This document shows, in pieces, positions 17,827 to 55,607 of a stretch of DNA of 64,000 nt (position 1 is the stretch's first letter; each line of letters begins with the position of its first letter). Below the pieces are notes generated by a model. The model worked only from the letters and a program-made list of their open reading frames with translations, ran no database searches and had not been told where the DNA came from. Origin of the DNA: Opitutales bacterium (GTDB taxonomy: Bacteria > Verrucomicrobiota > Verrucomicrobiia > Opitutales > PNEW01); NCBI GenBank assembly GCA_965197745.1, contig CBDANS010000006.1, forward strand, positions 608,001 through 672,000. The letters run 5' to 3'. Position numbers and translations under genes: made by a program.

Positions 17827-17858
17827 GGCTTCGCATGTCGTCGCTTCGCTCCTCGGAA
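17827..17858 (-). repeat. micro-insertion TTCCGAGGAGCGAAGCGACGACATGCGAAGCC in the SDNGS-E-F codon
   Basis: Absent from the homologous site at ~58195-58220; identical to 48610..48641 and 55418..55449. Confidence 0.95.
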
Positions 17859-17986
17859 CACTGCCGTTGTCACTACGGATATAGCTGGGAGCTCCCTCCT
17901 TTTCAATGGCCTCGCTAAGCACAGAGAGGACATCCGATGAGGGGAGTTCACGAGCGACCCGGATATCCAGACATTCACGCGTATAT

Positions 17987-18029
17987 GTCTTCGCTTCGCT
18001 TGAGTGTCGTCGCTTTCAGCTCCTCGGTA
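17987..18029 (-). repeat. micro-insertion TACCGAGGAGCTGAAAGCGACGACACTCAAGCGAAGCGAAGAC in the TLID-E-Y codon
   Basis: Empty allele ATCGATGAATATACG at ~55282-55296 and ~58074-58088. Confidence 0.95.
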
Positions 18030-18854
18030 CATCGATCAGAGTCATCATCTTTAATGGACCGCCATGGTCTGTGCGATCATGGACAAAGTCCCAGGACCAA
18101 AGGTGATTGCGACCGGTTGCTTTAGTAGGCGACCCCGTAGAGACCCCTTGACGGTGTCTACGCTTTTTAGGTGGCTTTACCTGCAACCCTTCTGAACGTC
18201 GTACCGCCTGAACAAACTTCCTGTTTGTTGTCCAGCCTTCCTTTACGAGCAAGGCACGGATGCGCCGGTAACCGTAGCAGGGATGTTCCCAGGACAGGGT
18301 TACAATCCGCTCGGCCAACCGCTGAGCTTTCTTACTGGCCTGCTTGGGCTGGTAGCTGAAAGTTGACCAACTGAGGCTGAGGTAGGAACAAGCCCTTCGC
18401 AACGAGCACAGCCCTCTCTCAGCCGCATCTTTTACTACTCGCTTCTTCTGCTTGGGGCTCACCACTTTTTTGACAGCGTTTCCTCCATTACCTGATTCTT
18501 AAGCATTTGATCAGCGAGCATCTTCTTCAACTCGGTGTTTTCTTTTTCCAGCTCTTTAAATCGCTTCGCATCGGCTAGTTCCAAATTGCCATACTTTTTA
18601 CCCCAGCGATAGAAGGTCTGTTCACTCACGTTGTTGCCTCGGCAGATTTCCTCTACCGTTTTTCCGGTATCGGCTTGCCGCAGTATTGCGATGATCTGTT
18701 CTGTTGTGTATCTTTTTCTTTTCATGAGGTTATCTGTTTATCCCGATAACCTCTCTCTGTTAATGATACCATTTTTGGGGGTCACTCCATCCTAGGCAAC
18801 GGCCCTAACTATTTTGATTCGGCCTTATTTAATGTCCATCCGACGTATGGAAAA

Positions 18855-19280
18855 TTGAATGGAGGTTGGAGGCATTTGGCCAAAGGAAATCTTCACCTCG
18901 CCAAGGAAAAGTTTATAAAGTTATCGGCGAAATCACCGAGTAGCGGACTACCGAATGTAGGAATCAGCCTTGCATCGGCCTTAAGCGAAGACTACATGAC
19001 CGCGGCATACGCGTTACGCCGGGCGTTCGCTTTGGACCCTGTAGGCGCGAGCGATCTACCATCGCGACCAGATCTAAGGAGGAAGGTCCGTGAGCTAACT
19101 AATCATTATCGTGAGATTGTAAACAATGAAGATAATAAAGACGTCGATGCGATATTCATGTATGCAGCGTTGAGTCATTTATTGAATGATTTCGAGTCGG
19201 CGCAAGCCGCAGTTCAAGATGCGATAGCTCGCGGAGATAATTCAACAGGTGCTGAAAATTTGAAAAAGCTTTTGGTATAA
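18855..19280 (+). pseudogene. TPR-like helical protein, probably 5'-truncated by IS3
   Basis: Ala-rich helical repeats; ORF begins 65 nt from the IS end, at a non-ATG codon. Confidence 0.5.
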
Positions 19281-19315
19281 CGCAGTATAGGTTATAGTAG
19301 TTAGTAAACTCAGAT

Positions 19316-19348
19316 AAAAGAGCTGCCTTTGTAAGAGCAGCTCTTTTT
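19316..19348. terminator. bidirectional intrinsic terminator
   Basis: AAAAGAGCTGC-ctttgtaaga-GCAGCTCTTTTT, 36 nt after the stop at 19280. Confidence 0.8.
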
Positions 19349-19421
19349 AATTTAACTACACCGTTAACTCAGAGTTGAAAGGCAACAGCCTTTGAAACAT
19401 TAAAAATATGAGGCCTGACCC

Positions 19422-20994
19422 GAATGGCGTTAAGATAAGGGATAGAATGAGTGCAATAGATGCTTGTACAGGGACCGTTGGAGAGCTACCCTAACGAGCA
19501 TGCAAAAACAAAACTTAACTCGTTATTTTCCAGGATTTAATCAGGTCCTGTTCGGTCGTGCTCCCCGAACAGCCCTTGCACAGATGGAGGGTAAGCTGGT
19601 AGAAATACGGCGGTCAAGTCTTTCCGAGCTATCGGATATCTTCGGGCAGTGGGTGCCGCAAAAGTATTTACACCGGAAGCCTCGAGGGGCTAACAGCCGG
19701 CGGAGATTGTTCAGCCAAAACGTGACCTTCTGGGCATTTTTGTTCCAAGTGCTCTCACCACGGACTGCCTGCCGGGAAGTGGTGCGCAAGCTCCAGAGCT
19801 ATTGCAGCATGAAGGGGCTGAAGTTGGCTAAAGGAACGGCCTCGGCCTACTGTCAGGCGAGGCAACGGCTGTTGGTGCAAGACCTGCACGGGATCCATGA
19901 AGCGATCAGTGAAGAGGTGGCCGGGAGAGTGACCGACGATCAACGGTGGAAAGGTCACGAGGTAAAAGTGGTCGACGGTACGGGTATCGCCACCGCCGAT
20001 ACGCCGTGCTTGCAGAGGTGTTACCCACAGCCTTCGCAGCAACGAAGCGGCTGCGGCTTTCCGGTGATGAAGCTGGTGGGCTGTTTTTCTTTAGCCAGTG
20101 GGGCGCTTTTACACTGGATGGAGTCCTCACTAAGGCATCATGACAGTGTGCTGTTGCGGGGCATGATCGGATTTTTTCAAAAGGGTGATGTGGTCCTTGC
20201 CGACCGGGGATTTTGCTCTTACCTCAATATTGCCCTGCTTAAAGGCCGCGGTGCTGAAGCGGTCATGCGTTTGCATCAGCAACGAAGAAGCGACTTTCGT
20301 CAGGGCAGGTCCTTGGGTAGGTATGACCGGCTGATCATGTGGAAGAAGCCGCAAAATGTCTTCGGCTTCAGTCGCGAGCAGTGGCGGCAAATCCCTGATG
20401 AGATCCCCGTACGGCTGGTGAAGATTTTCATTTTCATCAAAGGTTTCCGCGCCCATAGCGTAGACCTCGTGACTACCTTGAGCGATCCTCACCAATACTC
20501 CCACCACGATCTCGGAGAATTATACTATCGGCGCTGGGCAGTGGAGCTTTACTTTCGCCACATCAAAACCACCATGGGGATGGAGATCCTGCGCTCTCGC
20601 TCGGTCGCTCTCGTGCGCAAAGAGATTGCGATGTTTGCCATCGCCTACAATCTCTCATCCGCGCTCTTTTGCAGCAAGCTGCCAGTGCCTTCCACCGCGA
20701 CCTCTCCCGGCTAAGCTTCAAGGGGGCTGTTGACACCCTCCGCCAATATCAAAGTGCGCTCGCGGCCACCCGGTTTAATCCCAGAGCCCAACGATCTGTC
20801 ATTGACGAGATGATACACCTCATTGCCCTCGAATCGGTCCCCCTACGTCCCTTCCGATACGAACCAAGAGTCCTCAAACGTAGACCTATACCTTTCCAAC
20901 GATTGACTCATCCACGAGCCATGATGACCGTCTCTGCTTCACGAAAAAACAAAGGCTTTTATCATCCTAAACCACCCTTATCTTAACGCCATTC
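19422..20994 (+). mobile_element. IS4-family element, transposase with a 2-bp frameshift near 20652
   Basis: Perfect 20-bp IRs GAATGGCGTTAAGATAAGGG; 11-bp direct repeat AGGCCTGACCC at 19411..19421 and 20995..21005; VVDGT, LADRGF, YYRRWAVELYFRHIK (YREK). Confidence 0.95.
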
Positions 20995-21020
20995 AGGCCT
21001 GACCCTTTATGCTCTGTCCT

Positions 21021-21896
21021 TCAAACAGCGGTGAGCACCGTATTTAATTGTTTTGTGAGATAGGGAGACACCTTCCCCACTTGACTCACCGATTTCAGCA
21101 AAGGGAACGTACTTCCTCCCCAGTCTCCGTTACGGTCAAACACTTGTCTCCCCATGACAACCCCTGATTCATCGATAAAGCCTTTAAGCCGCGCAAGCCC
21201 TTCCTTAATTACTTTCTCAGGCAGGGTTTTTCCCCTTCGCTTGGACCACTCAACAAGATAATATAAACCCCGCAATATATCGTACTCGAAAAAGCGCGGA
21301 AAGAACGGTTTCAGCCATTCCTTGTTGATGACCCTTCCCTCATTCCTGGAGCATACCAGACGATGTTCAATCAGGTAGCGCGCGCCTTCCTCCAGGAATT
21401 TCGCTTCGGCATCGGTGTAGGCGCGATTTGTATTGAAGAGAATGGCTTCCATTGGAGGCAGTGTAGATACAATCGAGCTCTTTCGCGAATTCCCGTAGGC
21501 TGAAGGGGTACAATTCAACCCTCCATCCGGAAGCTGGTGTTTTAGAAACCATTCCCGCATCCAGGGAAGCTCACCATCGACATCACAGCCACAGGCCGAA
21601 AGCATCATGTAAAAAACCCCCAATTCACAGTGACAACAGTCCATCTTAGTCTTATCGGCTTTGCTCTTCGGTGCATCATCATCTGTAATCACGAACTTTG
21701 GCCAGGCCCCCTCTTTAAGCATCGCTAAAGCTTTCTTAGCAACCGGTTCAGGGATTTGCTCGGTTTCCCCCATTTCGTAAAGAGTTACCATGTGCCACCA
21801 CGGCCCTACCCATTTCCTTCTACTCCGGTTGTCCGGCAATGAAAACGTATCCGTTGCCGTGAGTAATTCCATTGAATGCTCGATCGTGTTTGTCAT
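21021..21896 (-). CDS. hypothetical protein with a prenyltransferase/squalene-cyclase-like repeat
   Basis: WFLKHQLPDGGLNC resembles the QxxDGGW repeat; YDILRGL. Confidence 0.65.
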   Translation of the reverse strand: MTNTIEHSMELLTATDTFSLPDNRSRRKWVGPWWHMVTLYEMGETEQIPEPVAKKALAMLKEGAWPKFVITDDDAPKSKADKTKMDCCHCELGVFYMMLSACGCDVDGELPWMREWFLKHQLPDGGLNCTPSAYGNSRKSSIVSTLPPMEAILFNTNRAYTDAEAKFLEEGARYLIEHRLVCSRNEGRVINKEWLKPFFPRFFEYDILRGLYYLVEWSKRRGKTLPEKVIKEGLARLKGFIDESGVVMGRQVFDRNGDWGGSTFPLLKSVSQVGKVSPYLTKQLNTVLTAV

Positions 21897-21977
21897 TCCT
21901 CGAAATTAAAACGGCTTTTGCGAGCGAGTCAAAAAGTTTTGTACCCCGTGGGGGCAGGAGCGAATTAGTCTATAAAT

Positions 21978-23079
21978 TCACTGTCTTTTTCGACCAATGG
22001 ATTTCATGAATTCCATGCACTCAAAGTTCTGAAAGTCTCTCATCACATTTCTGAACTTTGGTTTCCAATAGGTTTCAGGCGCTCCATAGGATTGGTCCCA
22101 GACAGGGACAAAGAGTAGAAAGCATAGCATTAGTCTGTAGTCATCCATTAAATTATCAAGCGAGTATGCGTCGGTTCTACTCGAATCCAGGAAAGAGTAA
22201 TATCTTTTGAGCGAGGCAACGGTGTCTGGATGGTTAACGGGTGGGAAAAACGAAAGCAGATAACCTAAATCAAATGTGGGAAAGTTCGCCGACACTTCCT
22301 GGAAGTCTACGAGCATGGCTATAGTGTTATCGAGCCCTCTTGGAAAGAGGAACTGTCCAATATAGCAATCCCCCTGTGAAAGCGTGATATTCTCCTTATC
22401 AGATATTCTCTCTGCCAGGTAATGCTTCCACAGCGGGGGAAGGAGACTCAAAGATTCTTCGAGTATCTCAATATCCGTACTGGAGTAATGGTCTCCAGCC
22501 TGGGACTTGAAAATCTGATACTCTTTTTTTCTCTTTGTTATGTGTCTCTGGTATGAAGGTTCGCCACTATACTCCCACCGCATGGGAAATGATGCGTACG
22601 AAGAGCCAATACTTGAAGATTCCCACCAGTAGGACTGAAATTCGGCCAGTGCCTTCAGGATACTGTCCCAGGCTCGCGGTTCGACAGGGTGCCTCCCCCT
22701 TGATATTGAGCGCATAGTCTACGGCTGCTTGATGTGTATCTGAAACATCCTGGAGCAAGAGCGCGGTAATCCCCGTCTCCTGATCATATTTTGCGAAGTA
22801 GCAGGTAGGGACCATTTCCAGAATAGTGGCAGGTTTACTGACAACGGAGTAAAATTGAAATTCAAATGAACCATCATGCTCTTTGTTTCTCTTAAAAACC
22901 AGTTTCTCAGGAGCATGGGTGTCGCTCTTGTTCCTGTAGTGAACGGTGATAAAATAAACTTCGGAATTAAAAGCATCGTTTCGCACACTATCAACAGAAT
23001 CAATTGCGCCCATTTGTAGCGCTTCTTCTATAGCGGAAGCCATATCTGAAGGGTCAAGATCTGCTTGTGTCAGATTCAT
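21978..23079 (-). pseudogene. choline/ecdysteroid-kinase-like phosphotransferase, frameshift near 22690
   Basis: ORF 22567..23079 (LLLQDVS) plus ORF 21978..22715 (TLSQGDCYIGQFL, LVDFQ, DLGY). Confidence 0.75.
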
Positions 23080-23130
23080 TACTTTTCCGGAGGTAAAAGT
23101 AAGGCATTATCTCCACTGCCCTGTTGAACC

Positions 23131-23877
23131 TTATTCGGTGATCTCAATCCAGTTGTATATAATACCACTCCCATATCCCAGTTTCCTTGCTAAATATTCT
23201 GAAGCAGCATCCTCAGTATCCCAGTGAGGCTCAATTCCTTTTCCCAGGTAATATAAAATTATACGAGCACCAAGGGCAGTTCCAATGCCACGATTTTGGA
23301 AATCTTGAATTGTGTCTATTTGAAATTGGATCGCAGTCTTCGAATTTATTGCGGTGGCAACACCTCCTACGAGTCGATTCTGGTGAAGCGCGCAAAAACC
23401 AATGCCTTTTTCAAGGAATTCTCCATAAAATGTAAGGTTTGGTGAAACCTCCTTACCTATTCTTTCTTTTTCATCCTTTTCTATTTTTTTGATTTCTACT
23501 CCTTCAGGTAATTCTTCAATGACCTTTCTTAAATTTTCCTCATCTAATTTCCGATGATCAAATGTTTTTCTACTGCGAACAATTTAGAGCCCCTTGTAAA
23601 CAACTTTGACTTTTTTTTCCCAGGATGAATTGCCCATAAAAATGTCGTCCTTTTGAGCTCCTGAAATGATATCAAGTGCGGCATCAGATTCTGAATTTCC
23701 ACCCATTATATTAAATGGACCAATCTTCAATCGAGCAACAGAAGGGTTTGTGTCGATGTCGACATAAGCTTTTCCCTGGAATCCCTGTAATACGGATTCT
23801 ACAAACGATTTGTAAGGGATGTCTTCAGCAAATAAGTTTCTGAGGTACCCAAGACTCTTTCTATTTATTTCTTTCAT
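23131..23877 (-). pseudogene. GNAT acetyltransferase with an in-frame TAA (23584) and a later frameshift
   Basis: Read-through gives ..EELPEGVEIKKI.., then GIGFCA..EDFEIQIDT..FQNRGIG..SLRIFSK-LGY. Confidence 0.7.
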
Positions 23878-23942
23878 TAATCATTGGGGAGGGTTTAAAG
23901 TGAGCAATAAAAAATAGAGTCAAAACTGTTCGGTCGCTGTCT

Positions 23943-24024
23943 GCGCCCCTTCAGGGCGCGATTTTCATTTTTCTTTTTCCAGGGGTTATCACCCCTGGCT
24001 AAAAACCTTCACCCCTTTGGGGTG
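23943..24024. repeat. REP-like triple-hairpin element
   Basis: GCGCCCCTTCAGGGCGC, CCAGGGG-ttatca-CCCCTGG, CACCCC-ttt-GGGGTG. Confidence 0.7.
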
Positions 24025-24229
24025 GATATAGCTATTCAAAAAATTCTGATTTTATACCCCCACTTACTGGTTACTGATCACTATACTATTCAATCGACTA
24101 TCTTCATTTGGCAATCGATATCACCTCATCGGTGCTATGATAAAAGAAATGCCCATTCGTAACGCATTTATTGTTTCTCCCCTCCGGGGCCAATCAAATA
24201 AATTGCTCACTCCTCAGGCATTGAGGTCT

Positions 24230-24907
24230 TTAATAATTTTTCTTACCGGTTATCAGCTTCCTCTTTACTTCGCGTTTTACCCGCGCGGAAGTCACCGATT
24301 CGTTGTCAGCGAGGAATTGTTTAACGGCCTTCCGATCCCACGAAACAAGCATACGTAGGGCCCAGCTGATGGCCTTCTGGACCATTACGCTTTTATCTGA
24401 AACTAGTATCTGACAGATCATTAAAGTACGAGCGCTGTCCCCGTTCCCACCCCTTGACTTGGTGTTGAGGGGGATGGTTGCGACAACCGCAGCTCTCCTC
24501 CACCACTGATCTTTAGATCGGCTCCAGCATCGAATGTTTCCATCCGACAGCTGACCATTTTGCCAGGCCTGTCCCACCAGGGTGCAGCAGAAAAAATCGA
24601 CCCACCCCCAGTTATCGATACCGGCCCCAAGGGTTTCAATTCGTTTGATAGTCAGCGATTCACGGGCTTCGCGATGACCGGCGATTAACTCGTAGGCGAC
24701 GTTCCTGCACACTGCGAGCTTGAGCTTCAACAGCGCCAAGCCAAGCTTACATATAAATTCACCGCTTTCGTCCTTGAGCTTCGACTTATATATTCGCACG
24801 ACCCTATGACGGTCTTTTGTGTATAGCCGTGACCTACGGCTGAATTGACGAAGCGTTTCTCGAATCTCTTTCGCGGTTTTATTAATTTTTAAGGAATCGG
24901 TGGTCAC
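24230..24907 (-). CDS. DNA alkylation repair protein (AlkD-like HEAT repeat)
   Basis: DNWGWVD, WWRRAAVVA, VQKAISWALR. Confidence 0.88.
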   Translation of the reverse strand: MTTDSLKINKTAKEIRETLRQFSRRSRLYTKDRHRVVRIYKSKLKDESGEFICKLGLALLKLKLAVCRNVAYELIAGHREARESLTIKRIETLGAGIDNWGWVDFFCCTLVGQAWQNGQLSDGNIRCWSRSKDQWWRRAAVVATIPLNTKSRGGNGDSARTLMICQILVSDKSVMVQKAISWALRMLVSWDRKAVKQFLADNESVTSARVKREVKRKLITGKKNY

Positions 24908-24973
24908 AGAATAATTTATAAACGGGTCTCATTTTCAAGGTCAATGGTGTCGACTCGCTGTCTAGCGAATCCC

Positions 24974-25774
24974 CTATTTGTGCGTCTCATCAAGGCACGG
25001 CTTTCCCCATAAAACTTGCGTTTTTACCTGGTATCTTAACAAACCATCTTCAACAAAGGGTAGAAGAATTTTCTCCATTTTATGGTCAAATTCTTTTTCT
25101 TTGATTTTTCCCATGCCTTCTACTGAAAGAGACGCTCTCGAGTGTTCCGCATTTATGAATTGGTCCAGGGATTGATTGAAATTGTAAGGTCCCATTGTGC
25201 GATTCCCTGTAAGCTTAAAGCAACCCGAGTTCTCTAAAGCTTTTAGCGCATCAAATGGCACATAATCCTTATATGTTGAATACTCAGCAATCAGGTCATT
25301 CCGGAATTTTCCCCATGGGACATTGCAGGGGCCATCTCCATCCATAATCACCAGGGAACCCGTTGGATGAAGCGCATCTTTGAATTTTTGAAAAACCAGA
25401 TTCAAGTCCATCCAATGCAAACTGGCTCCGATGACAATCAGGCCATAGGGTGGATTGAGCAGGGCTTCTTCAATTTTAGCGTGGATCCAGCAAATTTTAG
25501 GGTTGTCGCCACTTGGCAATGTTCTTCCCAGTCGGATCATTTCTTCCGAAAAATCAACGGCATCGATACGATCAGCTTTTCCTGTTAATAGTCGAGCAAT
25601 TTTACCTGGACCACTTCCCGCATCGAGTACCGATTTCGCATGCTCAGGGATTTTCTCTATTAAAAAATCCATTATCTCTTGATCGTAAGGGGGTCGAAAC
25701 CCATACCGTTCCACAACACTTTTAGATTTGAAGCGAATTGCGTGCTCATGATCTACCGTGTTTACAATAGACAT
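24974..25774 (-). CDS. class I SAM-dependent methyltransferase
   Basis: RPPY, VLDAGSGPG, VDFSEEM, SLHWMD. Confidence 0.9.
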   Translation of the reverse strand: MSIVNTVDHEHAIRFKSKSVVERYGFRPPYDQEIMDFLIEKIPEHAKSVLDAGSGPGKIARLLTGKADRIDAVDFSEEMIRLGRTLPSGDNPKICWIHAKIEEALLNPPYGLIVIGASLHWMDLNLVFQKFKDALHPTGSLVIMDGDGPCNVPWGKFRNDLIAEYSTYKDYVPFDALKALENSGCFKLTGNRTMGPYNFNQSLDQFINAEHSRASLSVEGMGKIKEKEFDHKMEKILLPFVEDGLLRYQVKTQVLWGKPCLDETHK

Positions 25775-25889
25775 GAACTGCTAATCTCTCGTATCACTGA
25801 CCGTTAAAAGCAGATCGTGTAATAAACGACGCTTTTCAATGTCCAAGCGAATATGAATATCAGGTGCCTTATATTTTTCAGTCATAAGA

Positions 25890-26681: not shown

Positions 26682-26720
26682 GGGATTGGCCTTTGTGTGA
26701 ATATTTTCAACCGATCCTGA

Positions 26721-27089
26721 TCAGGCAGGTTTCCTATAGGCCCGACTGGATATTTGAATAGAATTTTTACCGGGACCTTTCGCGTTTGAAAAAATGTACC
26801 CTTGCACCTGATGAACAGCTCCAAATTTAAGTCCGTTTTTTGCGCATTTATCGCGAAATTTCTCCACATCTTTTATATCGAAGACCAGCTTTACACAGGC
26901 TTGTCCATCCTTTATTCCTTTGCCCGCGGGGTGGATCATCAAACTCGCCCCTCCATGAGCAGGCAGTAGTTCCAGCATGCTGGTACCTTCTTCGACCAGG
27001 GATTTAAAATCGAAGTGCTTTACATAAAAAGCCGCCATCTTTTCGACATTTTTGGCATAAATCATAATCTTATTGATGGCTGGCTTCAT
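26721..27089 (-). CDS. VOC/glyoxalase family protein
   Basis: AAFYVKHF, KLVFDIKDV; 122 aa. Confidence 0.8.
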   Translation of the reverse strand: MKPAINKIMIYAKNVEKMAAFYVKHFDFKSLVEEGTSMLELLPAHGGASLMIHPAGKGIKDGQACVKLVFDIKDVEKFRDKCAKNGLKFGAVHQVQGYIFSNAKGPGKNSIQISSRAYRKPA

Positions 27090-46269: not shown

Positions 46270-46280
46270 GACGATTGTGG

Positions 46281-46343
46281 ATGTCGGTCTTCGCCCTCGG
46301 TACGGAATGCGGAATGAGGGATGTCGCGCTTAGCTCTCGGTAC
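46281..46343 (-). repeat. two TACCGAG-hairpin-CGAC units 40 bp apart within A(A/T)TCCG heptamer repeats
   Basis: GTACCGAGGGCGAAGACCGACAT (46281..46303) and GTACCGAGAGCTAAGCGCGACAT (46321..46343). Confidence 0.85.
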
Positions 46344-46402
46344 GGATTACGGATTGTGTCTAACGGTTATCGAATATAATTCTTATCTTCGTAATTATCC
46401 TC

Positions 46403-46559: not shown

Positions 46560-46663
46560 ATGGAATCAATCCGCAATTGAGACGGCCTGATTGACACCCA
46601 GAGCGCGGAAGTAATATTCTGATCTGTTCTGAATTGTGCATGTAGCACACTAAACGGGTGCGC

Positions 46664-47716: not shown

Positions 47717-49034
47717 TGGTCGTGACCACGAAAACTGGTACACTTGAAAAGTTAGTCTGGGTAACCTAGAAAGGACTCAGACAATGAAAGGCAAAAGATA
47801 CACAACTGAAGAGAAAATACGGATGCTGCGGCAGGCGGACAAAGGGAAAACGATCCTGGAAGCATGCCGCGAGAACAACATTAGCGAACAGACTTTCCAC
47901 CGCTGGAAGCGTGAGTTTGGGATGATTGATGTCGACCAGGCCAAGCGGATGAAGGAACTCTTTGAAGGAGAACGCGCGGTTAAAACGGATGCTGGCGGAC
48001 AAGATGCTGGGGATAGAGATCCTGCAGGAGACCCTCGAAAAAAAACTGTAAGCCCTGGGCACAAGCGGCAAGTGGCAGAGAGACTTGTGGCTCGGGGCCA
48101 GTGTTCGATGCGAGCGGGGTGCCGGTACTTTCGGCTGCACCGTTCCACCTATGCGTATAAGGCGAAGCATCCGGATGCCTGGTTAATGAAACTGAAGGCG
48201 GCAGTAAGGCGGTTATCACGGCAATATGCCAGGTGGGGCTATCCGAAGATCACGAAGCTGTTGAAAGACGAAGGCTGGGAGGTGGGTAAACGTCTCGTGC
48301 AAGGTCTACGACGCGAACTGGGCTTGGCGATCCCCCAACGCAAGCCAAGACGTCGGGGCAGGGGTGTTTCCACCGGGCTGCCGACCAAGGCCGAACATCC
48401 CGGCCATGTTTGGACCTGGGATTTTATCCACGATAAGACGGTCCGCGGTGGCAGTTTAAAAATGTTGACCGTGCTCGATGAGTACACCCGCGAGTGTCGA
48501 GTGATCCATGTTGATCGCCATATCAATGCGGAAACGGTGCGCGGTATCATGCAAAAACTGCTTGCCCGTCATGGGCCGCCACAATATATTCGCAGTGACA
48601 ACGGTTCCGTTCCGAGGAGCGAAGCGACGACATGCGAAGCCATTCATTGAAAAGGAATTGAGAGCCTGGCTAACTGCGATGAAAATCAAAACCCTCTATA
48701 TCGAACCAGGAAGCCCTTGGCAGAACGGATACATCGAATCGTTGCATGCCCGTTTTCGCGAGGAGTGTTTAAACCGTGAACAGCTATGGACTTTGACCGA
48801 AGCCCGCGTGGTGATCGAGGACTGGCGCTGGCTTTACAATAATGTCCGACCCCACCGCAGCCTCGGCAATATCACCCCACGGTGCTTCGCTGAAGACATT
48901 AATACCGAAGGCTTGGGCTCCATTCGGGCTACGCCCTCATTGCGCCCAAGCCTTGACTTCCTCTACCAACTTAACTTCAACATTAACCTCTCCAGACTAA
49001 CTCTCTCGGTGGACCAGTTTACGTAACCCGATCA
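47717..49034 (+). mobile_element. IS3-family element, subfamily B (extra T in orfA; micro-insertion in orfB)
   Basis: IRs TGGTCGTGACCACGAAACTGGTACAC / GTGGACCAGTTTACGTAACCCGATCA; WTWDF, SDNGS, PGSPWQNGYIES. Confidence 0.92.
48610..48641 (+). repeat. 32-nt micro-insertion identical to 17827..17858
   Basis: AAC GGT TCC G[insert]A TTC ATT. Confidence 0.95.
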
Positions 49035-49086
49035 GTACTAATATAGGTTGGGACTGATTTTAAAATAAAGTTAATCAATACTGAAA

Positions 49087-49887
49087 ATGATTATCAAAAG
49101 AAAGAATTTCGTATTCGCATCAATAACTTGGACGATCTCCGGTTTATGTCTTTTTACTAATGTTTTTTGTAATCAATTATCAGGAAGCTATGATAAGAAC
49201 TTTGAACCCTTTTTTAATTCTAAAATTAGTGAAATATCAGATTTGAATAAAAAGGAGGAATTAGAGAATCTTTTCAGTCAAATTGTATCATTACGTGACA
49301 TGCTTCGTGGCCGCGGCATAAATGATCGTGGCACTAGCATAAATAATGAATATGAAGATTTAACAGTTAGGCTTTCAGAAAAATTGAAGCAAGCAGTTAG
49401 GCAAACGGATATCCGAGCTGCATCGACATTTCTTTTTGACACAGTCGAAGATAATTACAACCGCCAGGCAGGACTATCTGCACTTCGTGAATATCAAGAA
49501 TTTAAAATCACTGATATTGAGTTACTCAGTAAGTTATATGTATCTTTAGACTACGAGGACAAAAATCACCACTCGGATAGACGATGGGTTGTACCTTCTA
49601 TTGCAAGAGCCCAACTATCACGTTGGATAGAATACGTGCTTGGTTTAGGAAATGTAGACTCTGCTCCAGCAAAAGAGAAGTATTCTAATCCAAGAAAGTG
49701 GTTAATAAGTAACTTGGAATTAGCGAAACAGTTAGATCAGAATAAAGATTTTTTACCTCTTATTGAGAGTAGCCTAGAGGCTGTACAAATAAACTATGGT
49801 ATTATCAATTCTGTTAAAATAAAAAAAGATAATGTTGATCGGACCCCGTTTACTGTACCAGAGCCCGTGTTAGATCCATCAGGATAG
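49087..49887 (+). CDS. AT-rich secreted hypothetical protein, 3' end cut by an IS end at 49836
   Basis: Signal-like N-terminus; last ~17 codons read through IS terminal sequence. Confidence 0.6.
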   Translation: MIIKRKNFVFASITWTISGLCLFTNVFCNQLSGSYDKNFEPFFNSKISEISDLNKKEELENLFSQIVSLRDMLRGRGINDRGTSINNEYEDLTVRLSEKLKQAVRQTDIRAASTFLFDTVEDNYNRQAGLSALREYQEFKITDIELLSKLYVSLDYEDKNHHSDRRWVVPSIARAQLSRWIEYVLGLGNVDSAPAKEKYSNPRKWLISNLELAKQLDQNKDFLPLIESSLEAVQINYGIINSVKIKKDNVDRTPFTVPEPVLDPSG

Positions 49888-50870
49888 TAAGAGTTTTGAT
49901 TTGCTTAGATATGGCTCTCTGGACGTATTCGGCCGGAGGCCGATAGCCCAGAGAACTGTGGAGTCTTTGAGTATTACAATCAAGGCGTCCGGCTTCAGAT
50001 TTTCTATCACATTGGAGTGACCCTAAAAATCGCATCATTTTCAGAGAGAAGTTATGGGGATAGACAGTAAGCTCAATGAAAAGAAAAAGAGAGCCAACAA
50101 ACAGATTATAGCAATACTGGGGCGAGCAGATACAGGAAAGACGGTAGAGGAAGTCTGCTGTGGCAAACAAGGTTAGAGAAAAGATCTTACACTGATTGAA
50201 TCGGGAGTTGATGATGATCGATGGGGACCAGGCCAAGCGGATGATGGATTGGGAAGGGAAAACACACTTGAAGCGAATCCTAACGGATACGATGCCTGGT
50301 GCGGAGATTGTACAAGAGGCGCTGGGCACAAGCAAGAAGCGGTTGAAAAGTTTGTGTCTCGGGATCGCTGTTCGATGCGTGGGGGGGTCAATATTTTCGT
50401 TTTTACCGCTCTGCCTATTCCTATAAGGGGAAGTATCCTTATGCTTGGTTAACAAAGCTGAAAGCAGCGGTGAGATGTTTGTCACGACAATACACTGGAG
50501 ATAAGGCTACATCAAGATCACGAAGCTGTTGCAGGAGGAGGGGGGCGTTAAGGAACCGATGGTGCATGGGCTGCGCTGTCAACTGGGCTTGGCGATTGCG
50601 CTCCATAGACCGAAACATTGATGCAGGGGCACTTCCACTGGCTTGCCAACTGCGACCGAGCATCCCAGCCATCGTCCTTAGTTGGGACTTTATCCACGAC
50701 AAAACGATTCGCGGGGAGCGATCCAAAATAGCTGGCTATCCATAATGAATATACGCGTGAGGTTCTGCTTATCCACGTCGAGCGTCTCATTACCACCATG
50801 AGCGTGCGATCATGCAAAAGCAGATCGACACAGTCACGGGGCTCCATGCTATTATAGCAGCGACAACTCA
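49836..50870. mobile_element. degenerate IS3 fragments (subfamily C right end on minus; A/B mosaic on plus from 50013)
   Basis: Similarity to 57145..57300, 54523..54700 and 47900..48600. Confidence 0.8.
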
Positions 50871-51237
50871 ACGAGCGATAGCGAGAATAACAAACAGATC
50901 TATTGAAGTATTGTACTTGTTGCAACTTGATCTGACAGACACTGCTTGATCAAATCACAACTCGGTCAGGCAAAAACATTTATAGTTTTCTTCTCAACTT
51001 CTAATCAAATAATAAGTTATCGTCGTGGAGTGCCCCAAAAAAATCCACTCGAAAATTCTTGGCCGATTCCTGGCTGAAGATCAGCATAAAAGTATGATTC
51101 CTGCCCATTCCTGCCAAACATTTTGAGGCAAGGTCAGGAAATTAGAGGAAAATATAAATTATTATTGGGTCGTTATTTAAGTGTAACTAATTTTTAATAA
51201 GTATCTTATAAGGCATTATTGAGTCCCGTTCATAGTC

Positions 51238-51537
51238 GGTTTCATCGAGTCGTTTCACACCGTTTACGCGATGAGTGTTTGAACCGTGAAGTGTTGCTCA
51301 GCGTAGCTGAAGCCCAAGTTGTAATCGAACAATGGCGTCATAATTACAATAATGAACATCCCCACACTCGTTTAGGCTTTAAAAGCCCACTAGAGTTTGT
51401 CAGATTCCTTTCCGATCTTGGCCTCGTCGGGCTAGGCCCTCACTTCGCCAAGATCTCTCATATACATCAATCCTAAAACCATTAACACCCCGATACTCTC
51501 TCACTTAAAAATTGGTACGAATAACGGGGTCCGACCA
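51238..51537 (+). mobile_element. IS3 subfamily A right-end fragment
   Basis: RLRDECLNREVLL (empty RDEC site) through the IR ..ACGGGGTCCGACCA. Confidence 0.88.
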
Positions 51538-52449
51538 CTTACCCTCCACAATCATCAAGTCCTCAATGGCGGAGAGAATAACATCCAATTCTCGATGATC
51601 GATTGTATCTAATGGCGATTGAAAATAATTTCGGATCGTCGCACTTCGAATAACGCCGCGACGTCTGAGTACTTCCTTGTAAAGCTGCAACGGGTAGAGA
51701 GATTGCATATTCAGGAGAGGAAGCAAGCGATCGAATAAACGCCGTGCTTTTGCAGCATCACCGCGCTCATAAGTATTCCATATCGCTGCATGCACATCCG
51801 GAATATCGCAAGCCGGCATCGTCCCGCACACTCCCCTGGCCATCTCGTTCATCATGTGCCGGCCGGCCAATCCACCGAATATCCCGTGCAGCTTTTCTTT
51901 ACGCTGAACAAGCTCGAAAAGTTTCGAAACCACATGCGTGCAGAAAAGAGATTCCTCCTTGATATAATGAATATGTTCAATCTCATCGATGAGACGCGCC
52001 ATAAATTCCGGACTCATCGGTGAGCCGACGAAGATGGAGTTTTGAACAATAACGGGAACTTCGGTTGCTGCACCAATGGCTTCAAAATAGCGATATATCC
52101 CCTCACTGTGCAGAGGCTTGATTGGTGGTGACATTGCCATGATCCCATCGGCGCCCAATCCGTTCATCGCCTTCGTCAACTCTGCGGCTGCGTGCGCAGA
52201 CACTCCGCTAGCGACGAGGACTACGGGGATTCGTCCATTCGCCTGTTCACAAACAATGCGGCTGACAAGTAGTCGCTCTTCATCCGAGAGTGCGAAAAAT
52301 TCACTGACATTCGCAGGAACTACCAACCCATGCGCACCCACATCAATGCTAAAATTAACAACCGAGCGAAGAGACTCTTCATCAATACTGCCATCTTCAT
52401 AAAAAGGTGCGACAAGAATAACGTATACACCGCGAAATTTATTTCCCAT
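51505..52449 (-). CDS. dihydrodipicolinate synthase (DapA/NanA) family lyase; C-terminus runs into the IS end
   Basis: GVY..LVAPFYEDGSID, SEFFALSDEER, YIKEES Schiff-base Lys. Confidence 0.88.
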   Translation of the reverse strand: MGNKFRGVYVILVAPFYEDGSIDEESLRSVVNFSIDVGAHGLVVPANVSEFFALSDEERLLVSRIVCEQANGRIPVVLVASGVSAHAAAELTKAMNGLGADGIMAMSPPIKPLHSEGIYRYFEAIGAATEVPVIVQNSIFVGSPMSPEFMARLIDEIEHIHYIKEESLFCTHVVSKLFELVQRKEKLHGIFGGLAGRHMMNEMARGVCGTMPACDIPDVHAAIWNTYERGDAAKARRLFDRLLPLLNMQSLYPLQLYKEVLRRRGVIRSATIRNYFQSPLDTIDHRELDVILSAIEDLMIVEGKWSDPVIRTNF

Positions 52450-52493
52450 ATTATGGACGAGTCAAAAGATCAAAACGTCAAAAAGAATTAACC

Positions 52494-53534
52494 ATGTACA
52501 CTTTAGAAGAAGATCTCCAAGAGATAATTGAACAAAGCCGCGTTGAGCTTGGGTCTTCTGGGATTATAGCTCGTGTGGAGACTGATGACTTTTTCTGGTG
52601 TGGGACATCCGGAATATTAACTTCCACCGACATTGATAGAGGATTCTACATTTGCAGTCTTAGTAAAACATTCACCGCAATTCTGGTAATGAAGCTTCTT
52701 GAAAATGGTAAACTAAAATTAGATGACCGAATTTCAATTTATCTCAATAAGATTAGCCCGTTTCAGAATATTACTATTAGGCAATTGCTAAATCACTCAC
52801 ATCGTATTCCAGATTATACAAGCTTTGATAACTACGAAGATGAAGTAAATAAATCTCCACATAATCCATGGTCGCGGGAATACATCTCTTCAAGAGCGAA
52901 AAAGATCGGCCTTCTGGAATCTTCGGACGGGAACTGGTCGTACTCAAATACTGGATACATGTATTTATATCAAATAATTGAAATTGTCACTGGGCAAAGT
53001 TATGTCGATGCTATTGACGAACTGGTTATCAAGCCACTCGGGTTTCAATACACGTATGTTGCTACTAAGATCGATAAAGGCAAAATTCTGATTCCAGCCT
53101 ATGACCAATATTTCTCTAAATATGAAGGAGACATACGTTGTCAATATCACCCTGACTGGTGTGCTACGGGTGTACTTGTATCAAATGTTAAGGAAGTATG
53201 TTAACTTTACAGAAAACTGTTAGAGGGTTCCATCCTATCAGAAGAGTCAATGCAAGAAGTATTAGAAGGAGTCGAAACACCTTACTGGGTTGGAGGACGA
53301 GAAGCGTTATACAATGGCAAGTTGAGTTATGGCCTTGGCATAAGAATCTGTAGAAAATTCCCTCTTGGTCCCTTTTTTGGTCATGGAGGAGATTGCCCAG
53401 GCTATTCGATTTGGGCTGGATATATAGATATTTCTGGCGGTAAAAATATAACGAGCTGTGTAGTCTGTAATAGCAGCCTTAAATTTCCACCAGCCGAAGT
53501 TTGGATGAAACTGATCAATCGTGTAGTGGAGTAA
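52494..53534 (+). pseudogene. serine hydrolase (beta-lactamase/D-peptidase family) with an in-frame TAA at 53202
   Basis: SLSK (SxxK), LLNH, YSN, HGG all in the same frame. Confidence 0.85.
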
Positions 53535-53643
53535 TAGAGGGAGTGTAAATAGAAATCATATTTTCTTTAACTCTCTCTCAATTATTGAAGCAATACTTTC
53601 AGGTGTTGCTGTAATAGCGACCACCAGTGCATTTTGGGGCTCC

Positions 53644-54159
53644 TCAAGAGTATTGTTTGTTGAGCTCCCAGCCGCCTTTTGTCTTTAGCGTAACCCTGAT
53701 ATTTCCATGTATATCCGTTCGAAAGACTTTGTCTCCCTGTTTCGATCCAGCGCTGCCGGTTTCGTAGAACTCCAAGGCCTTCTCTTCCGGATGACCAAAC
53801 GAGTTGTCTCCGACAGACACGATCGTAACGTCAGGACTGATCTTACGCAGATGATCTAGATAGTAATGTTTCTTGTCTCTTGGATCGTCGAAAAAGGTCA
53901 ACGATCCGTGATGGCTGGCGAGTAGCAGTGACGAACTGAGCGATTCTACATCGTAACTCCTCACTATACTGTACCTCCACGCAACTGCACTTGAATCGCC
54001 GGTGAGCATCATGCTTCCAAGAACTGCACCGTTCGCAGGTCGCCGTTGTTCTACTTTTATAACGATGCTTTGGGCATTCGCATCTGTATCCAAGGCATCA
54101 TTCTTGGAGTTCATTATTCTGAGTCGCGTGTTGCCGAAATCCCAGCGTTTCATTGCCTC
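53644..54159 (-). pseudogene. ComEC/Rec2-like metallo-beta-lactamase-fold protein, 5'-truncated by IS
   Basis: SIVIK, MLTGD, ASHHGS, SVGDNSFGHP, RTDIHGNI. Confidence 0.8.
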
Positions 54160-54522
54160 TGGAGTGACCCCAAAAAATCGTATCACTTACCGTGAGAGGT
54201 TATCGGGATAAACAGATAACCTCAATGAAAAGAAAAAGATACAGAACAGATCATAGCAATACTGCGGCAAGCCGATACAGGCAAGACGGGACAGGAAGTC
54301 TGCCGTGGTAACAACCTAAGCGAACCGCCCTTCTATCGGTGTGGTAAAAAGTCAATCAATTAGGGGTTACCTATAAGTGTGCTTACAGGATGGGTAAACA
54401 AATACGGAAGCTACTTAATGATAATATTGATCCTCTCAATAGTGTAGTTGAACTTGATGAAACCTATTAAGGGGCTAAAGAAAGCAACAAACATTAGCAT
54501 AAAAGGACCCGGTATACACAAG
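54160..54522 (+). mobile_element. IS3 subfamily A left-end fragment followed by an IS1595 transposase remnant
   Basis: TGGAGTGACCCCAAAAAATCGTATCA plus the orfA start; then YKCAYRMGKQIRK..VVELDETY with stops. Confidence 0.8.
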
Positions 54523-55417
54523 TGGTGTGACTCCTAAAAATCGTATCATTTACCGAGAGAGGTTATGGGGATAAACAGATAACCTCAATGAAAAGAAAAC
54601 GATATACAACAGAACAGATCATAGCAATACTCCGGCAGACCGATACGGGCAAGACGGGACAGGAAGTCTGCCGCGGCAACAACCTAAGTGAACAGACCTT
54701 CTATCGCTGGGGCAAAAAGTATGGCAACTTGGAGCTGGCCGATGCTCTAGCGATTTAAAGAACTGGAAAAAGAGAATACCGAGTTGAAGAAGCTGCTCGC
54801 TGATCAAATGCTCAAGAATCAGGTGATGGAGGAAACGCTGTCAAAAAAGTGGTGAGCCCCAAGCAGAAGAAGCTAGCAGTAAAAGGTGCAGTTGAGAAAG
54901 GGCTGTGCTCGTTTTAGAGGGCTTTTGCCTATCTCAGTCTCAGAGTTTTGGTCAACGTTCAGCTACAGGTCTAAGCAGGCCAGCAGGAAAGCTCAGCGGT
55001 TGGCCGAGCGGATTGTAACCCTGTCCTGGGAACATCCCCGCTACGGTTACCGGCGCATCCGTGCCTTGCTGGTGAAGGAAGGTTGGGCGGCGAGCAGGAA
55101 ATTTGTACAGGCAGTGCGACGTTCTTCGGGCTTACAGGTAAAGCCACCGAAAAAGCGTAGACACCGTCAAGGAGTCTCTACAGGGTCGCCTACTAAAGCA
55201 ACCGGTCGCAATCACGTTTGGTCCTGGGACTTTGTCCATGATCGCACAGACAATGGCGGTCCATTAAAGATGATGACTCTGATCGATGAATATACGCGTG
55301 AATGTCTGGATATCCGGGTAGCTCGTCAACTCCCCTCATCGGATGTCCTCTCTGTGCTTAGCGAGGCCATTGAAAAGGAGGGAGCTCCCAGCTATATCCG
55401 CAGTGATAATGGCAGTG

Positions 55418-55449
55418 TTCCGAGGAGCGAAGCGACGACATGCGAAGCC
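55418..55449 (+). repeat. 32-nt micro-insertion identical to 17827..17858
   Basis: AAT GGC AGT G[insert]A TTT ATC. Confidence 0.95.
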
Positions 55450-55571
55450 ATTTATCGCTCATCAAGTACAGCGGTGGTTGCGTGAAAAAAACATCAAGGC
55501 GATATATATCGATCCGGGCAGTCCCTGGCAAAACGGTTTCATCGAGTCGTTTCACAACCGCTTACGCGATG

Positions 55572-55607
55572 TACCGAGGAACGTAGTGACGACATAGCGA
55601 AGCGCTC
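55572..55607 (+). repeat. micro-insertion TACCGAGGAACGTAGTGACGACATAGCGAAGCGCTC in the RLRD-E-C codon
   Basis: Empty allele CGCGATGAGTGTTTG at ~17697-17711 (minus) and ~51267-51281. Confidence 0.95.

What the first reader, a model, noticed from the sequence alone, without database searches (positions are those of the whole stretch)
17827..55607. Family of mini-hairpin micro-insertions that repeatedly hit Glu codons beside the IS3 DDE motifs
Seen: five 32-43 nt inserts (17827, 17987, 48610, 55418, 55572) share T(A/T)CCGAGGA-[GCGAAGC, GCTGAAAGC or ACGTAGT]-GACGACA..GCGAAGC..C. Each sits after the G of a Glu codon and is followed by A-T. They occupy three different sites: TLID^EY, SDNGS^EF and RLRD^EC. 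There is no target duplication and a net loss of one target base. Empty alleles of all three sites occur in other copies in the window. Every insert adds a stop or a frameshift, and all three full-length IS3 copies are hit. Established: GCGAAGC-type GNA-loop hairpins are exceptionally stable in ssDNA, and these motifs flank the catalytic residues of IS3 integrase cores. Inference: a tiny non-autonomous element, probably mobilised through ssDNA or RNA by an enzyme outside this window. It either parasitises or silences transposons, or is removed or bypassed during expression. I do not recognise it as a described element.
Basis: partly seen in the sequence, partly recalled or inferred. Interest (0 to 1): 0.92.

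Follow-up and report, generated by a model that had tools for sequence, protein, structure and literature searches.

The report
Mini-hairpin repeats breaking IS3 transposase genes
Tiny 32-43 base hairpin-forming repeats, members of a repeat family found only in Opitutales bacteria, sit at fixed codons inside transposase genes and disable them, while the broken jumping genes keep multiplying with help from intact siblings.

Summary
The genome holds 117 copies (71 type A, 30 B, 13 C, 3 beside tRNA genes). The core CCGAGGA / short stem-loop / GACGACA / GCGAAGC occurs in 31 credible of 401 Opitutales genomes, and in one genome as 81 mostly intergenic copies. It inserts in one orientation at G^AAT, with no target duplication and one A lost. 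The same site occurs as TCG^AAT in T-loops and a D-loop of tRNA gene fragments.

The inserts are not removed from RNA as far as the data reach: contigs from two RNA libraries keep them, and translational bypass fails for type C.

Broken IS copies spread because intact siblings exist. Four or five such copies are 99.5-99.8% identical to filled ones and carry GAG instead of GAA at the site.

The type A insert is 32/32 identical in IS lineages whose flanks are 47-65% identical. It therefore entered them separately, or was passed between them.

My best reading is a REP-like, non-autonomous miniature mobile DNA element that hitchhikes on IS3 elements. The enzyme is unidentified: links to a Y1/HUH gene and to an integrase are weak. 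I rate it a new variant of a known kind, of moderate to high interest.

The parts
17827..17858 (-). Type A mini-insert (32 nt) at SDNGS^EF of IS copy 'IS-A'
   Evidence: frameshift (+31 net)
17987..18029 (-). Type B mini-insert (43 nt) at TLID^EY of IS-A
   Evidence: in frame (+42 net) but contains TGA
48610..48641 (+). Type A mini-insert (32 nt) at SDNGS^EF of IS copy 'IS-B'
55418..55449 (+). Type A mini-insert (32 nt) at SDNGS^EF of IS copy 'IS-C'
55572..55607 (+). Type C mini-insert (36 nt) at RLRD^EC of IS-C
   Evidence: frameshift (+35 net) and TAG
17440..18790 (-). IS3-family copy IS-A (9 copies at 99.5% identity or more in the genome, all with inserts A and B)
47717..49034 (+). IS3-family copy IS-B (15 copies at 99.5% or more, all with insert A). 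Intact siblings elsewhere have HTH_Tnp_1, rve and rve_3 domains
54153..55893 (+). IS3-family copy IS-C with a duplicated 5' part. Site B is empty; sites A and C are filled
55285..55292 (+). Empty site B (GATG|AATA) in IS-C
17701..17708 (-). Empty site C (GATG|AGTG, Glu = GAG) in IS-A
58206..58213 (+). Empty site A (CAGTG|AGTT, Glu = GAG) in a decayed IS copy
46281..46342 (-). Two copies of a related intergenic repeat (TACCGAG..stem-loop..CGACAT), 39 copies in the genome

Best explanation
The inserts are copies of an Opitutales-wide family of miniature hairpin repeats that behave like REP sequences. The architecture is T(T/A)CCGAGGA, a 2-3 bp stem-loop, GACGACA, a variable linker, GCGAAGC, and a short tail ending in C.

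They are, or recently were, mobile as DNA and cannot move by themselves. They enter in one orientation at G^AAT, with no target duplication and with one A lost or replaced by C. The best-matching natural target is TCG^AAT in the T-loop or D-loop of tRNA gene fragments. One relative uses C^AAAA.

Four codon positions of IS3-family transposase genes happen to offer this site, so the transposase is broken there. The broken IS copies still multiply because intact sibling copies, which carry GAG instead of GAA at the site, supply transposase in trans. The insert is also passed between IS copies by recombination, taking 2-3 neighbouring bases with it.

Shown: the anatomy, the target, the distribution, the existence of intact siblings, and retention of the inserts in contigs from RNA libraries.

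Inferred: mobility as DNA, help in trans, and the enzyme. My best guess for the enzyme is a single-strand DNA (HUH/Y1-type) protein acting on the two mini-hairpins, as for REP and IS200/IS605 ends. I give that step about one chance in three.
For: Copy number and types: 118 motif hits in the genome, of which 117 are real: 71 A, 30 B, 13 C and 3 beside tRNA genes.

Distribution:
- Core present in 35 of 401 Opitutales genomes and 20 of 133 genera. The reversed control gave 1 hit in 401 genomes. Four of the 35 are chance coding matches.
- G040 has 81 copies of the 5' module. The nine copies whose surroundings I read are modular arrays outside IS3 and tRNA contexts.
The 6 clear copies were all in Opitutales records. 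A seventh Opitutales-order locus (L052) and seven non-Opitutales loci were chance matches. One Woeseiaceae MAG contig is possibly real.

Structure: the closing pair of the first stem covaries. Of 33 distinct variants, 7 of 7 that start with A end with T. Of 26 that start with G, 25 end with C and 1 with T.

Target:
- Filled versus empty alleles at sites A, B and C.
- T-loop copies after tRNA-Asn, tRNA-Gln and tRNA-Ser.
- A D-loop copy in a duplicated tRNA 5' fragment.
- A fourth IS3 site, PW^QNG.

Empty alleles mostly lack the target:
- Site A: 8 of 10 read GAG, 1 GAA, 1 TAG.
- Site C: 30 of 31 read GAG.
- Site B: all 9 read GAA.

Separate entry into IS lineages: insert A is 32/32 identical between IS lineages whose flanks are 47-65% identical. 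A different variant sits at the same DNG-E^F site in G114 (L124).

Hitchhiking: 9 IS-A and 15 IS-B copies are at least 99.5% identical and lie at different loci.

Intact helper: a 403-aa uninterrupted ORF with HTH_Tnp_1, HTH_21, rve and rve_3. It is 99.5-99.8% identical to filled siblings and differs only at the insert plus 2-3 adjacent bases. The left end is 39/40 identical to that of IS-B.

Retention in RNA libraries: X18 contigs of 725 nt and 258 nt and an X19 contig of 238 nt span inserts B, A and B without a gap. An X18 contig carries a filled site C.

Enzyme hint: a Y1 homologue is present in 23 of the 31 genomes with a credible core, against 78 of 370 without.
Against: - No transposition or excision event was observed. 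Every 'joint' in the laid runs is an ordinary empty allele of another IS copy.
- No enzyme is tied to the element. The genome's only Y1 gene is split into 198-aa and 171-aa frames and is not flanked by the repeat. No core motif lies within 2.5 kb of Y1 genes in G040, G001 or G002. Eight genomes have the core but no Y1 match at E<=1e-20.
- Loss of one target base is not typical of IS200/IS605 or REP systems.
- No intact copy of the IS-A/IS-C lineage was found in this genome. Its 9 near-identical copies therefore lack an obvious helper.
- Only 4 of 18 IS-B copies show a clean 4-nt direct repeat at my boundaries.
- Each insert variant is tied to one site, which simple random insertion from a common pool does not predict.
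- Folding energies are not better than shuffles.
Confidence: 0.6

Rival explanations
1. No dedicated mobility. A handful of old accidents, such as microhomology-mediated template switching at stable hairpins, placed a repeat in an IS copy. Everything since is IS multiplication, gene conversion and recombination between IS copies.
For: - The filled and intact IS-B siblings differ at the insert plus 2-3 adjacent bases that match another filled lineage, the signature of co-conversion.
- A chimeric copy is recombined exactly at the insert (C7:1673773).
- Site A of IS-B (GGTTCCG/AATTC) resembles the flanks of the tRNA-linked copy (GGTTCG/ATCC).
- Loss of one base fits imprecise joining.
- Each variant is tied to one site.
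Against: - The same G^AAT junction recurs in at least ten unrelated contexts in several genera: T-loops, a D-loop, four or five IS3 sites and another IS lineage.
- Insert A is identical in IS lineages whose flanks, at 47-65% identity, are too diverged for ordinary homologous conversion.
- G040 has 81 dispersed copies of the 5' module.
Confidence: 0.2
2. The inserts are removed or skipped during expression, as a mini-intron or by translational bypass like T4 gene 60 or yeast mitochondrial byps. On this reading the IS copies remain functional and the insert acts as a throttle on transposase.
For: - IS copies carrying inserts are the ones that multiplied.
- No intact IS-A/IS-C copy was found.
- The insert is far better conserved than the coding flanks.
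- Read from the sequence: type A offers a take-off CCG and landing CCA that would restore the frame. Type B has AGC-TGA followed by an in-frame AGC.
- Removing the insert minus its last C would leave GCA (Ala) at all three sites.
Against: - Contigs from two RNA libraries keep inserts A, B and C, and no joint lacking only the insert was seen. This is weak evidence: contigs drop rare forms and DNA may contaminate the libraries.
- Type C has no matching landing codon (sequence).
- There was no Rfam match to any ribozyme or intron.
- Intact helper copies exist for IS-B.
- In G040, the nine of its 81 copies that I read lie outside IS3 and tRNA contexts, where removal has no meaning.
Confidence: 0.07
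3. A host-serving or element-serving anti-transposon device. The element is aimed at IS3 catalytic cores to silence them, with GAG alleles as escape mutants in an arms race.
For: - 114 of 117 copies in this genome lie in IS3 transposase genes, at four positions of the catalytic domain.
- IS3-type genes are hit in other genera too (L124, L126, L148).
- 38 of the 41 empty alleles at sites A and C read GAG, which lacks the target.
Against: - The target is equally a tRNA T-loop or D-loop sequence.
- Copy number in IS is inflated by hitchhiking.
- In the nine G040 and five G126 copies I read, the family lies outside IS3 genes.
- All 9 empty alleles at site B keep GAAT and yet are unfilled.
- No guide or enzyme was found.
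Confidence: 0.08
4. Assembly or sequencing artefact.
For: None found.
Against: - Filled forms are present in contigs of four runs from three studies.
- They are also in independently assembled genomes G001, G002, G171 and G114.
- The sequence variants are site-specific.
Confidence: 0.01

Closest known systems
REP / REPIN sequences and their RAYT (TnpA-REP, Y1 HUH) proteins (abstracts of PMC3116915 and PMC8266576 seen in a search listing; passages of PMC6006769 read)
   Same: - Very short hairpin-forming repeats, clade-specific, tens to hundreds of copies.
- Non-autonomous, with a conserved single-stranded motif next to the stem.
- Arrays of modules in some genomes (G040).
- A Y1 gene is more often present in genomes that have the repeat.
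   Different: - In this genome and its relatives the copies lie inside genes, not between them.
- No GTAG-type foot.
- No inverted doublets (REPINs).
- The Y1 gene is not flanked by the repeat and is broken here.
- A defined insertion point with loss of one base.
IS200/IS605 ends and their miniature derivatives (PATEs)
   Same: - No terminal inverted repeats and no target duplication.
- Insertion in one orientation 3' of a short motif.
- A small hairpin near each end.
   Different: - At 31-43 nt in total, far smaller than known functional ends.
- One target base is lost.
- No TnpA or TnpB is linked to it.
Rickettsia palindromic elements (RPE) inserted in protein-coding genes (recalled, not read here)
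   Same: - Palindromic repeats sitting inside open reading frames.
- Types B and the PW^QNG relative add a multiple of three (+42 nt).
   Different: - RPEs are 100-150 bp, in frame and translated within working proteins.
- Here types A and C shift the frame and type B brings a stop.
- The hosts here are transposase genes.
Translational bypass elements: T4 gene 60 gap and 'byps' of Magnusiomyces mitochondria (recalled, not read here)
   Same: - Mobile, hairpin-forming inserts of 27-55 nt inside coding sequence, in one orientation.
- Stop codon early in the insert (types B and C).
   Different: - No consistent take-off and landing pair; type C has none.
- Contigs from RNA libraries say nothing for bypass.
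- Intact helper copies make bypass unnecessary.
IS1397 / ISKpn1 (IS3 family) inserting into REP sequences (recalled)
   Same: A specific relation between IS3-family elements and palindromic repeats.
   Different: The direction is reversed: there the IS lands in the repeat, here the repeat lies in the IS.
T-loop-targeting tyrosine integrases of genomic islands
   Same: - The target is the T-loop sequence.
- tRNA 3' end copies flank the element.
- An integrase element of this genome is inserted at ATCGAATCG inside an IS3 gene.
- The integrase family is enriched in genomes with the core: 11 of 31 against 21 of 370.
   Different: - No duplicated identity segment at the two junctions.
- G040, with 81 copies, has no such integrase at E<=1e-40.

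Membership tests
REP/REPIN-RAYT system | Short imperfect palindromes in high copy, extragenic | tested here: inconclusive
   Short hairpin repeats in high copy: yes. Extragenic: no in this genome, where 114 of 117 lie in IS3 genes. The nine G040 and five G126 copies I read lie outside IS3 genes.
REP/REPIN-RAYT system | Single-copy RAYT gene flanked by the repeats | tested here: not met
   One Y1_Tnp gene is present. It is split into two frames and has no repeat nearby. There is no core within 2.5 kb of Y1 genes in G040, G001 or G002.
REP/REPIN-RAYT system | Inverted doublets (REPIN) and a conserved GTAG-type tetranucleotide | tested here: not met
   Copies are single or in direct arrays. The conserved foot is CCGAGGA.
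IS200/IS605-type miniature element (PATE) | Subterminal hairpins, no inverted repeats, no target duplication, insertion in one orientation 3' of a short motif | tested here: met
   Two mini-hairpins; junctions G|T(T/A)CC...C|AT; always sense relative to the target.
IS200/IS605-type miniature element (PATE) | Seamless insertion (no base lost) and a cognate TnpA(Y1) | tested here: not met
   One A is lost or replaced at sites A, B, C, at PW^QNG, and in three of five tRNA contexts. No cognate TnpA was found.
MITE derived from a DDE transposon | Terminal inverted repeats and target site duplication | tested here: not met
   Neither is present at any junction.
Self-splicing intron or self-cleaving ribozyme | Match to a known catalytic RNA family; removal from RNA | tested here: not met
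   No Rfam match on the inserts at E up to 10, or on tRNA-linked copies. Contigs from RNA libraries keep the inserts (weak evidence).
Translational bypass element (gene 60 / byp type) | Matching take-off and landing codons that restore the frame | tested here: not met
   Possible for A (CCG/CCA) and B (AGC/AGC). There is none for C. Read.
Element integrated by a tyrosine or serine recombinase | Identity (overlap) segment repeated at both junctions | tested here: not met
   No repeated segment at the junctions.
IS3 family (the host elements) | HTH_Tnp_1 plus rve-type DDE integrase core; short target duplication | tested here: met
   Pfam HTH_Tnp_1, HTH_21, rve and rve_3 on the intact 403-aa ORF. 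4-nt direct repeats at 4 of 18 IS-B copies.

The most novel reading that the evidence does not exclude
An ultra-small (31-43 nt) site-specific mobile element whose variants are each matched to one target. It homes into the catalytic core of IS3 transposases and into tRNA-loop-like sites by a mechanism not yet described: nucleic-acid-guided, or using an unknown enzyme that removes one target base. It either acts as a heritable brake on transposons, or is removed conditionally so that it works as a switch on transposase production.
Probability: 0.1. Interest if true: 0.9.

Novelty: new variant of a known kind. Interest (0 to 1): 0.62.

Why it matters
Repeats of the REP type are defined as extragenic, and how they move is still poorly understood. 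Here a family of even smaller hairpin repeats has a readable insertion point: filled and empty alleles sit side by side, the target is G^AAT, and one base is lost. The target is shared by tRNA loops and four codons of IS3 transposases. This gives a rare handle on the insertion chemistry of miniature repeats.

It also shows one mobile element disabling another. The disabled copies survive as trans-mobilised parasites of their intact siblings. GAG alleles look refractory to insertion.

If an enzyme can be matched to the element, the small size of the recognised DNA would interest people who study single-strand DNA transposases. If the inserts turn out to be removed during expression, it would be a new kind of bacterial gene interruption.

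Tried and rejected
- Known RNA families. Rfam at permissive thresholds on the IS inserts and on tRNA-linked copies gave only tRNAs, one group II intron nearby and noise. A hammerhead-like reading of CCGAGGA / stem / GAC was considered and dropped: the core differs at invariant positions (recalled consensus) and Rfam gave no hit.
- Minimum-energy folding as RNA or DNA. It was not better than shuffles for the inserts. tRNA-linked copies with their flanks fold somewhat better (z -2.3 and -3.2 in 2 of 3).
- A hairpin at the empty target sites. Only site A falls in a weak loop; sites B and C do not.
- Translational bypass. It is possible for A and B but fails for C (sequence).
- Laying reads. No joint lacks just the insert. 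The joints seen carry AG, A or 8 other letters and equal empty alleles of other IS copies.
- A larger autonomous element with split ends. Half-motif scans of the genome found only decayed copies and a second repeat family.
- Viral contigs. There were 4 hits, all chance matches in high-GC coding DNA.
I read 15 of them.
- Y1 and integrase co-occurrence.
- Orientation of the related intergenic repeat against GC skew. 22 of 34 agree, which is inconclusive.
- A shuffle control for the first stem was uninformative, because most variants are GC..GC. The A..T versus G..C covariation is the usable signal.
- My first motif screen for intact transposases missed the intact IS-B-type ORF because of a too narrow pattern. 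This was corrected.
- Literature. Four searches found no description of such inserts. Supplements were not consulted.

Full report
**The observation**

- 17827-17858 (minus strand, 32 nt).
- 17987-18029 (minus strand, 43 nt).
- 48610-48641 (32 nt).
- 55418-55449 (32 nt).
- 55572-55607 (36 nt).

They lie in three IS3-family copies, which I call IS-A (17440-18790, minus), IS-B (47717-49034) and IS-C (54153-55893). They interrupt TLID/EY (type B), SDNGS/EF (type A, three times) and RLRD/EC (type C). Type B is in frame (+42 net) but brings a TGA. Type A (+31) and type C (+35) shift the frame.

Empty alleles of all three sites are in the window: 55288|55289, 17705|17704 and 58209|58210.

The shared architecture is T(T/A)CCGAGGA, a 2-3 bp stem with a 3-6 nt loop, GACGACA, a linker of 1-5 nt, GCGAAGC, and a tail of 1-6 nt ending in C.

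**How common it is**

A regular expression for the core finds 118 places in the 4.45-Mb genome. One is a chance match. The other 117 sort into 71 type A, 30 type B, 13 type C and 3 copies that are not in an IS. The stricter pattern gives 104 hits against 0 for its reversed control.

The family is not private to this genome:
- 35 of 401 sampled genomes of the same order have the pattern, in 20 of 133 genera. The reversed control gave 1 hit in 401 genomes.
- Four of the 35 are chance matches in coding DNA, leaving 31.
- Record titles from the all-bacteria scan name the order as Opitutales (Verrucomicrobiota).
- Of the 15 loci I read, the 6 clear copies were all in Opitutales records. A seventh Opitutales-order locus (L052) and seven non-Opitutales loci were chance matches. 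One Woeseiaceae MAG contig is doubtful.
- Viral contigs gave 4 chance matches only.
- In genome G040 the 5' module occurs 81 times. The nine copies I read sit in arrays of similar modules, outside IS3 and tRNA contexts.
- This genome also holds 39 copies of a related intergenic repeat (TACCGAG, stem-loop, CGACAT). Two of them are in the window at 46281-46342.

So the inserts belong to a clade-wide family of REP-like mini-hairpin repeats.

**Structure**

Among 33 distinct versions of the first stem-loop, all 7 that begin with A end with T. Of the 26 that begin with G, 25 end with C and 1 with T. This is covariation at the closing pair, though the sequences are related to one another.

Nearest-neighbour folding, as DNA or RNA, does not score the inserts better than shuffles. 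The exceptional stability of GCGAAGC-type DNA hairpins is recalled from the literature and was not tested. No Rfam family matches.

**The target**

The three non-IS copies lie just downstream of tRNA-Asn and tRNA-Gln genes. They sit inside a second copy of the tRNA's T-loop-to-CCA end, and are inserted at GGTTCG^(A)ATCC.

The same arrangement occurs in other genera, sometimes in tandem units of 110 or 123 nt, after tRNA-Ser and other tRNAs. In G126 a duplicated 5' fragment of a tRNA carries the element in its D-loop at GTCG^(A)ATGC. The intact tRNA 130 nt downstream shows the empty sequence.

In the IS genes the sites read TCCG^AATTC, CAGTG^AATTC, CGATG^AATAT and CGATG^AATGT. A relative with a different interior sits at a fourth site, PW^QNG (TGGC^AAAAC). 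It is filled in 13 copies, with a net +42 nt in frame and no stop.

Everywhere the element has the same orientation relative to the target and there is no target duplication. In this genome the filled allele reads G[...C]AT where the empty allele reads GAAT, so one A is lost or replaced by the terminal C. In G035 and G071 the AAT is kept.

**Filled and empty alleles (with type counts)**

| Site | Filled | Empty | Codon in empty alleles |
|---|---|---|---|
| A | 71 | 10 | 8 GAG, 1 GAA, 1 decayed TAG |
| C | 13 | 31 | 30 GAG |
| B | 30 | 9 | all GAA |

At sites A and C the empty copies are therefore mostly those that lack the GAAT target. Site B does not follow this rule.

**Do the inserts have to be removed for the IS to work?**

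This was the most exciting option, and the evidence is against it.

First, intact helpers exist. A 403-aa uninterrupted ORF with HTH_Tnp_1, HTH_21, rve and rve_3 domains is present at C4:136926-138137, with three or four sister copies. It is 99.5-99.8% identical to a group of filled copies. One search counts 12 copies that carry a one-base variant of the insert; one search aligned two of them. The intact and filled copies differ only by the insert and 2-3 bases next to it. Its left end is 39/40 identical to that of the main IS-B group.

Second, contigs from two metatranscriptome libraries keep the inserts. An X18 contig of 725 nt spans insert B, one of 258 nt spans insert A, and an X19 contig of 238 nt spans insert B, all without gaps. 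An X18 contig also carries a filled site C. Every joint seen carries the extra letters of an ordinary empty allele. This evidence is weak, because contigs drop rare forms and DNA can be present in RNA libraries.

Third, a bypass reading works on paper for A (CCG to CCA) and B (AGC-TGA to AGC), but type C has no landing codon.

**How the copy number arose**

Nine IS-A and 15 IS-B copies are at least 99.5% identical, inserts included, and lie at different loci. Four of 18 IS-B copies show a clean 4-nt direct repeat at my boundaries. Two others share a left or right flank with another copy, which points to recombination between IS copies. A chimeric copy joins an IS-C-type left flank to an IS-B-type right flank exactly at the insert.

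Most of the 114 IS-borne copies are therefore passengers of IS multiplication and recombination.

The element still entered IS genes more than once, or was passed between lineages by something other than ordinary homology:
- Insert A is 32/32 identical in lineages whose 120-nt flanks are 47-50% (left) and 64-65% (right) identical.
- A different variant occupies the same DNG-E^F site in an unrelated IS of G114.
- Type C sits in the same codon of a roughly 25% diverged IS in G171.

No intact IS-A/IS-C copy was found here. That leaves its recent burst without an obvious helper.

**The enzyme**

I could not identify it.
- The genome has one Y1 (IS200-like) gene. It is split into 198-aa and 171-aa frames and has no repeat beside it.
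- Y1 homologues occur in 23 of the 31 genomes with a credible core, against 78 of 370 others. Eight genomes have the core without the Y1 gene.
- No core lies within 2.5 kb of Y1 genes in G040, G001 or G002.
- Passages of PMC6006769 say that Y1 proteins with a DnaA-like tail (their subclass 2.1) had no REP-like sequences detected nearby. The assignment of this protein to that subclass is my guess.
- A family of 429-aa tyrosine integrases is also enriched: 11 of 31 against 21 of 370.
- However, the mini-inserts show no repeated identity segment at their junctions, and G040 has no such integrase at E<=1e-40.
- Orientation of the related intergenic repeat against GC skew (22 of 34) says nothing firm.

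**Verdict**

The finding is real and larger than described. The inserts are members of an Opitutales-specific family of miniature hairpin repeats with a defined, orientation-specific insertion point at G^AAT. That target is shared by tRNA loop sequences and four codons of IS3 transposases. They disable the transposase and then ride along as the disabled IS copies are mobilised by intact siblings and shuffled by recombination.

In behaviour the family is closest to REP sequences and to IS200/IS605-type ends. It fails the membership tests of both: it is intragenic, has no flanking RAYT and loses one base.

I found no description in four literature searches. The insertion chemistry and the enzyme remain open. 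RNA-level removal is unlikely but not excluded.

Noticed in passing
window 46281-46342 (-), and 39 copies genome-wide: A second, intergenic repeat family (TACCGAG(G), GNA-type stem-loop, CGACAT). It is usually flanked by CAATCG-like simple repeats and often lies near another inverted repeat (TTGTCATTGCGAGGA...). It may be the strand-locked cassette-junction repeat noted earlier in this genome.
   Followed up: partly
G000 C4:157692, C5:25792, C7:161075 and 10 more (not in the window): A fourth IS3 site, PW^QNG, carries a related insert with a net +42 nt, in frame and without a stop (it reads LPSEATPQRA.ARIT). It could be tolerated in the protein, as Rickettsia palindromic elements are.
   Followed up: partly
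G000 C7:1066385 (L152): An element encoding a 429-aa tyrosine integrase is inserted in an IS-B-type transposase gene at ATCGAATCG|TT, in the IES motif with the catalytic Glu. This is a T-loop-like sequence. The other end of the element was not found.
   Followed up: partly
L001 1965-2030, L002 1962-2030, L146: A conserved stretch (TTCGACGYGCT ... CTTGCTCATGRCAGG) directly follows the CCA end of tRNA genes in distant genera and precedes the tRNA-linked copies. Its role is unknown; it may be an element end or a small RNA.
   Followed up: no
L165 (G126:C1:2039900-2040800) 420-560: A tRNA promoter and the first 22 nt of the tRNA are duplicated 130 nt upstream of the real gene. The duplicate carries the mini-element in its D-loop.
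   Followed up: partly
G000 C7:1673773 and IS-B copies C5:498537, C7:2135712 and C7:1484485: There are chimeric IS copies and copies that share one flank with another copy. This indicates frequent recombination between IS copies, or mis-joins in the assembly.
   Followed up: no
L154 (G000 C6:161880-165206): The only Y1 (IS200-like) gene of the genome is split into overlapping 198-aa and 171-aa frames. Homologues in relatives are 300-350 aa, and G040 has a 1.33-kb multi-copy element carrying it.
   Followed up: partly
L128 (G281:C14) 2082-2415: A group II intron (Rfam D1-D4, E 9e-22) lies about 600 nt from a copy of the mini-element.
   Followed up: no
window 47784-48650 and L150 3427-4638: In the IS-B lineage the whole transposase is one open frame. 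The leucine-zipper-like stretch (LKENARLKRMLADKMLGIEILQETLEKKL) is readable only in another frame, between two stops. This is an unusual layout for an IS3 member.
   Followed up: no
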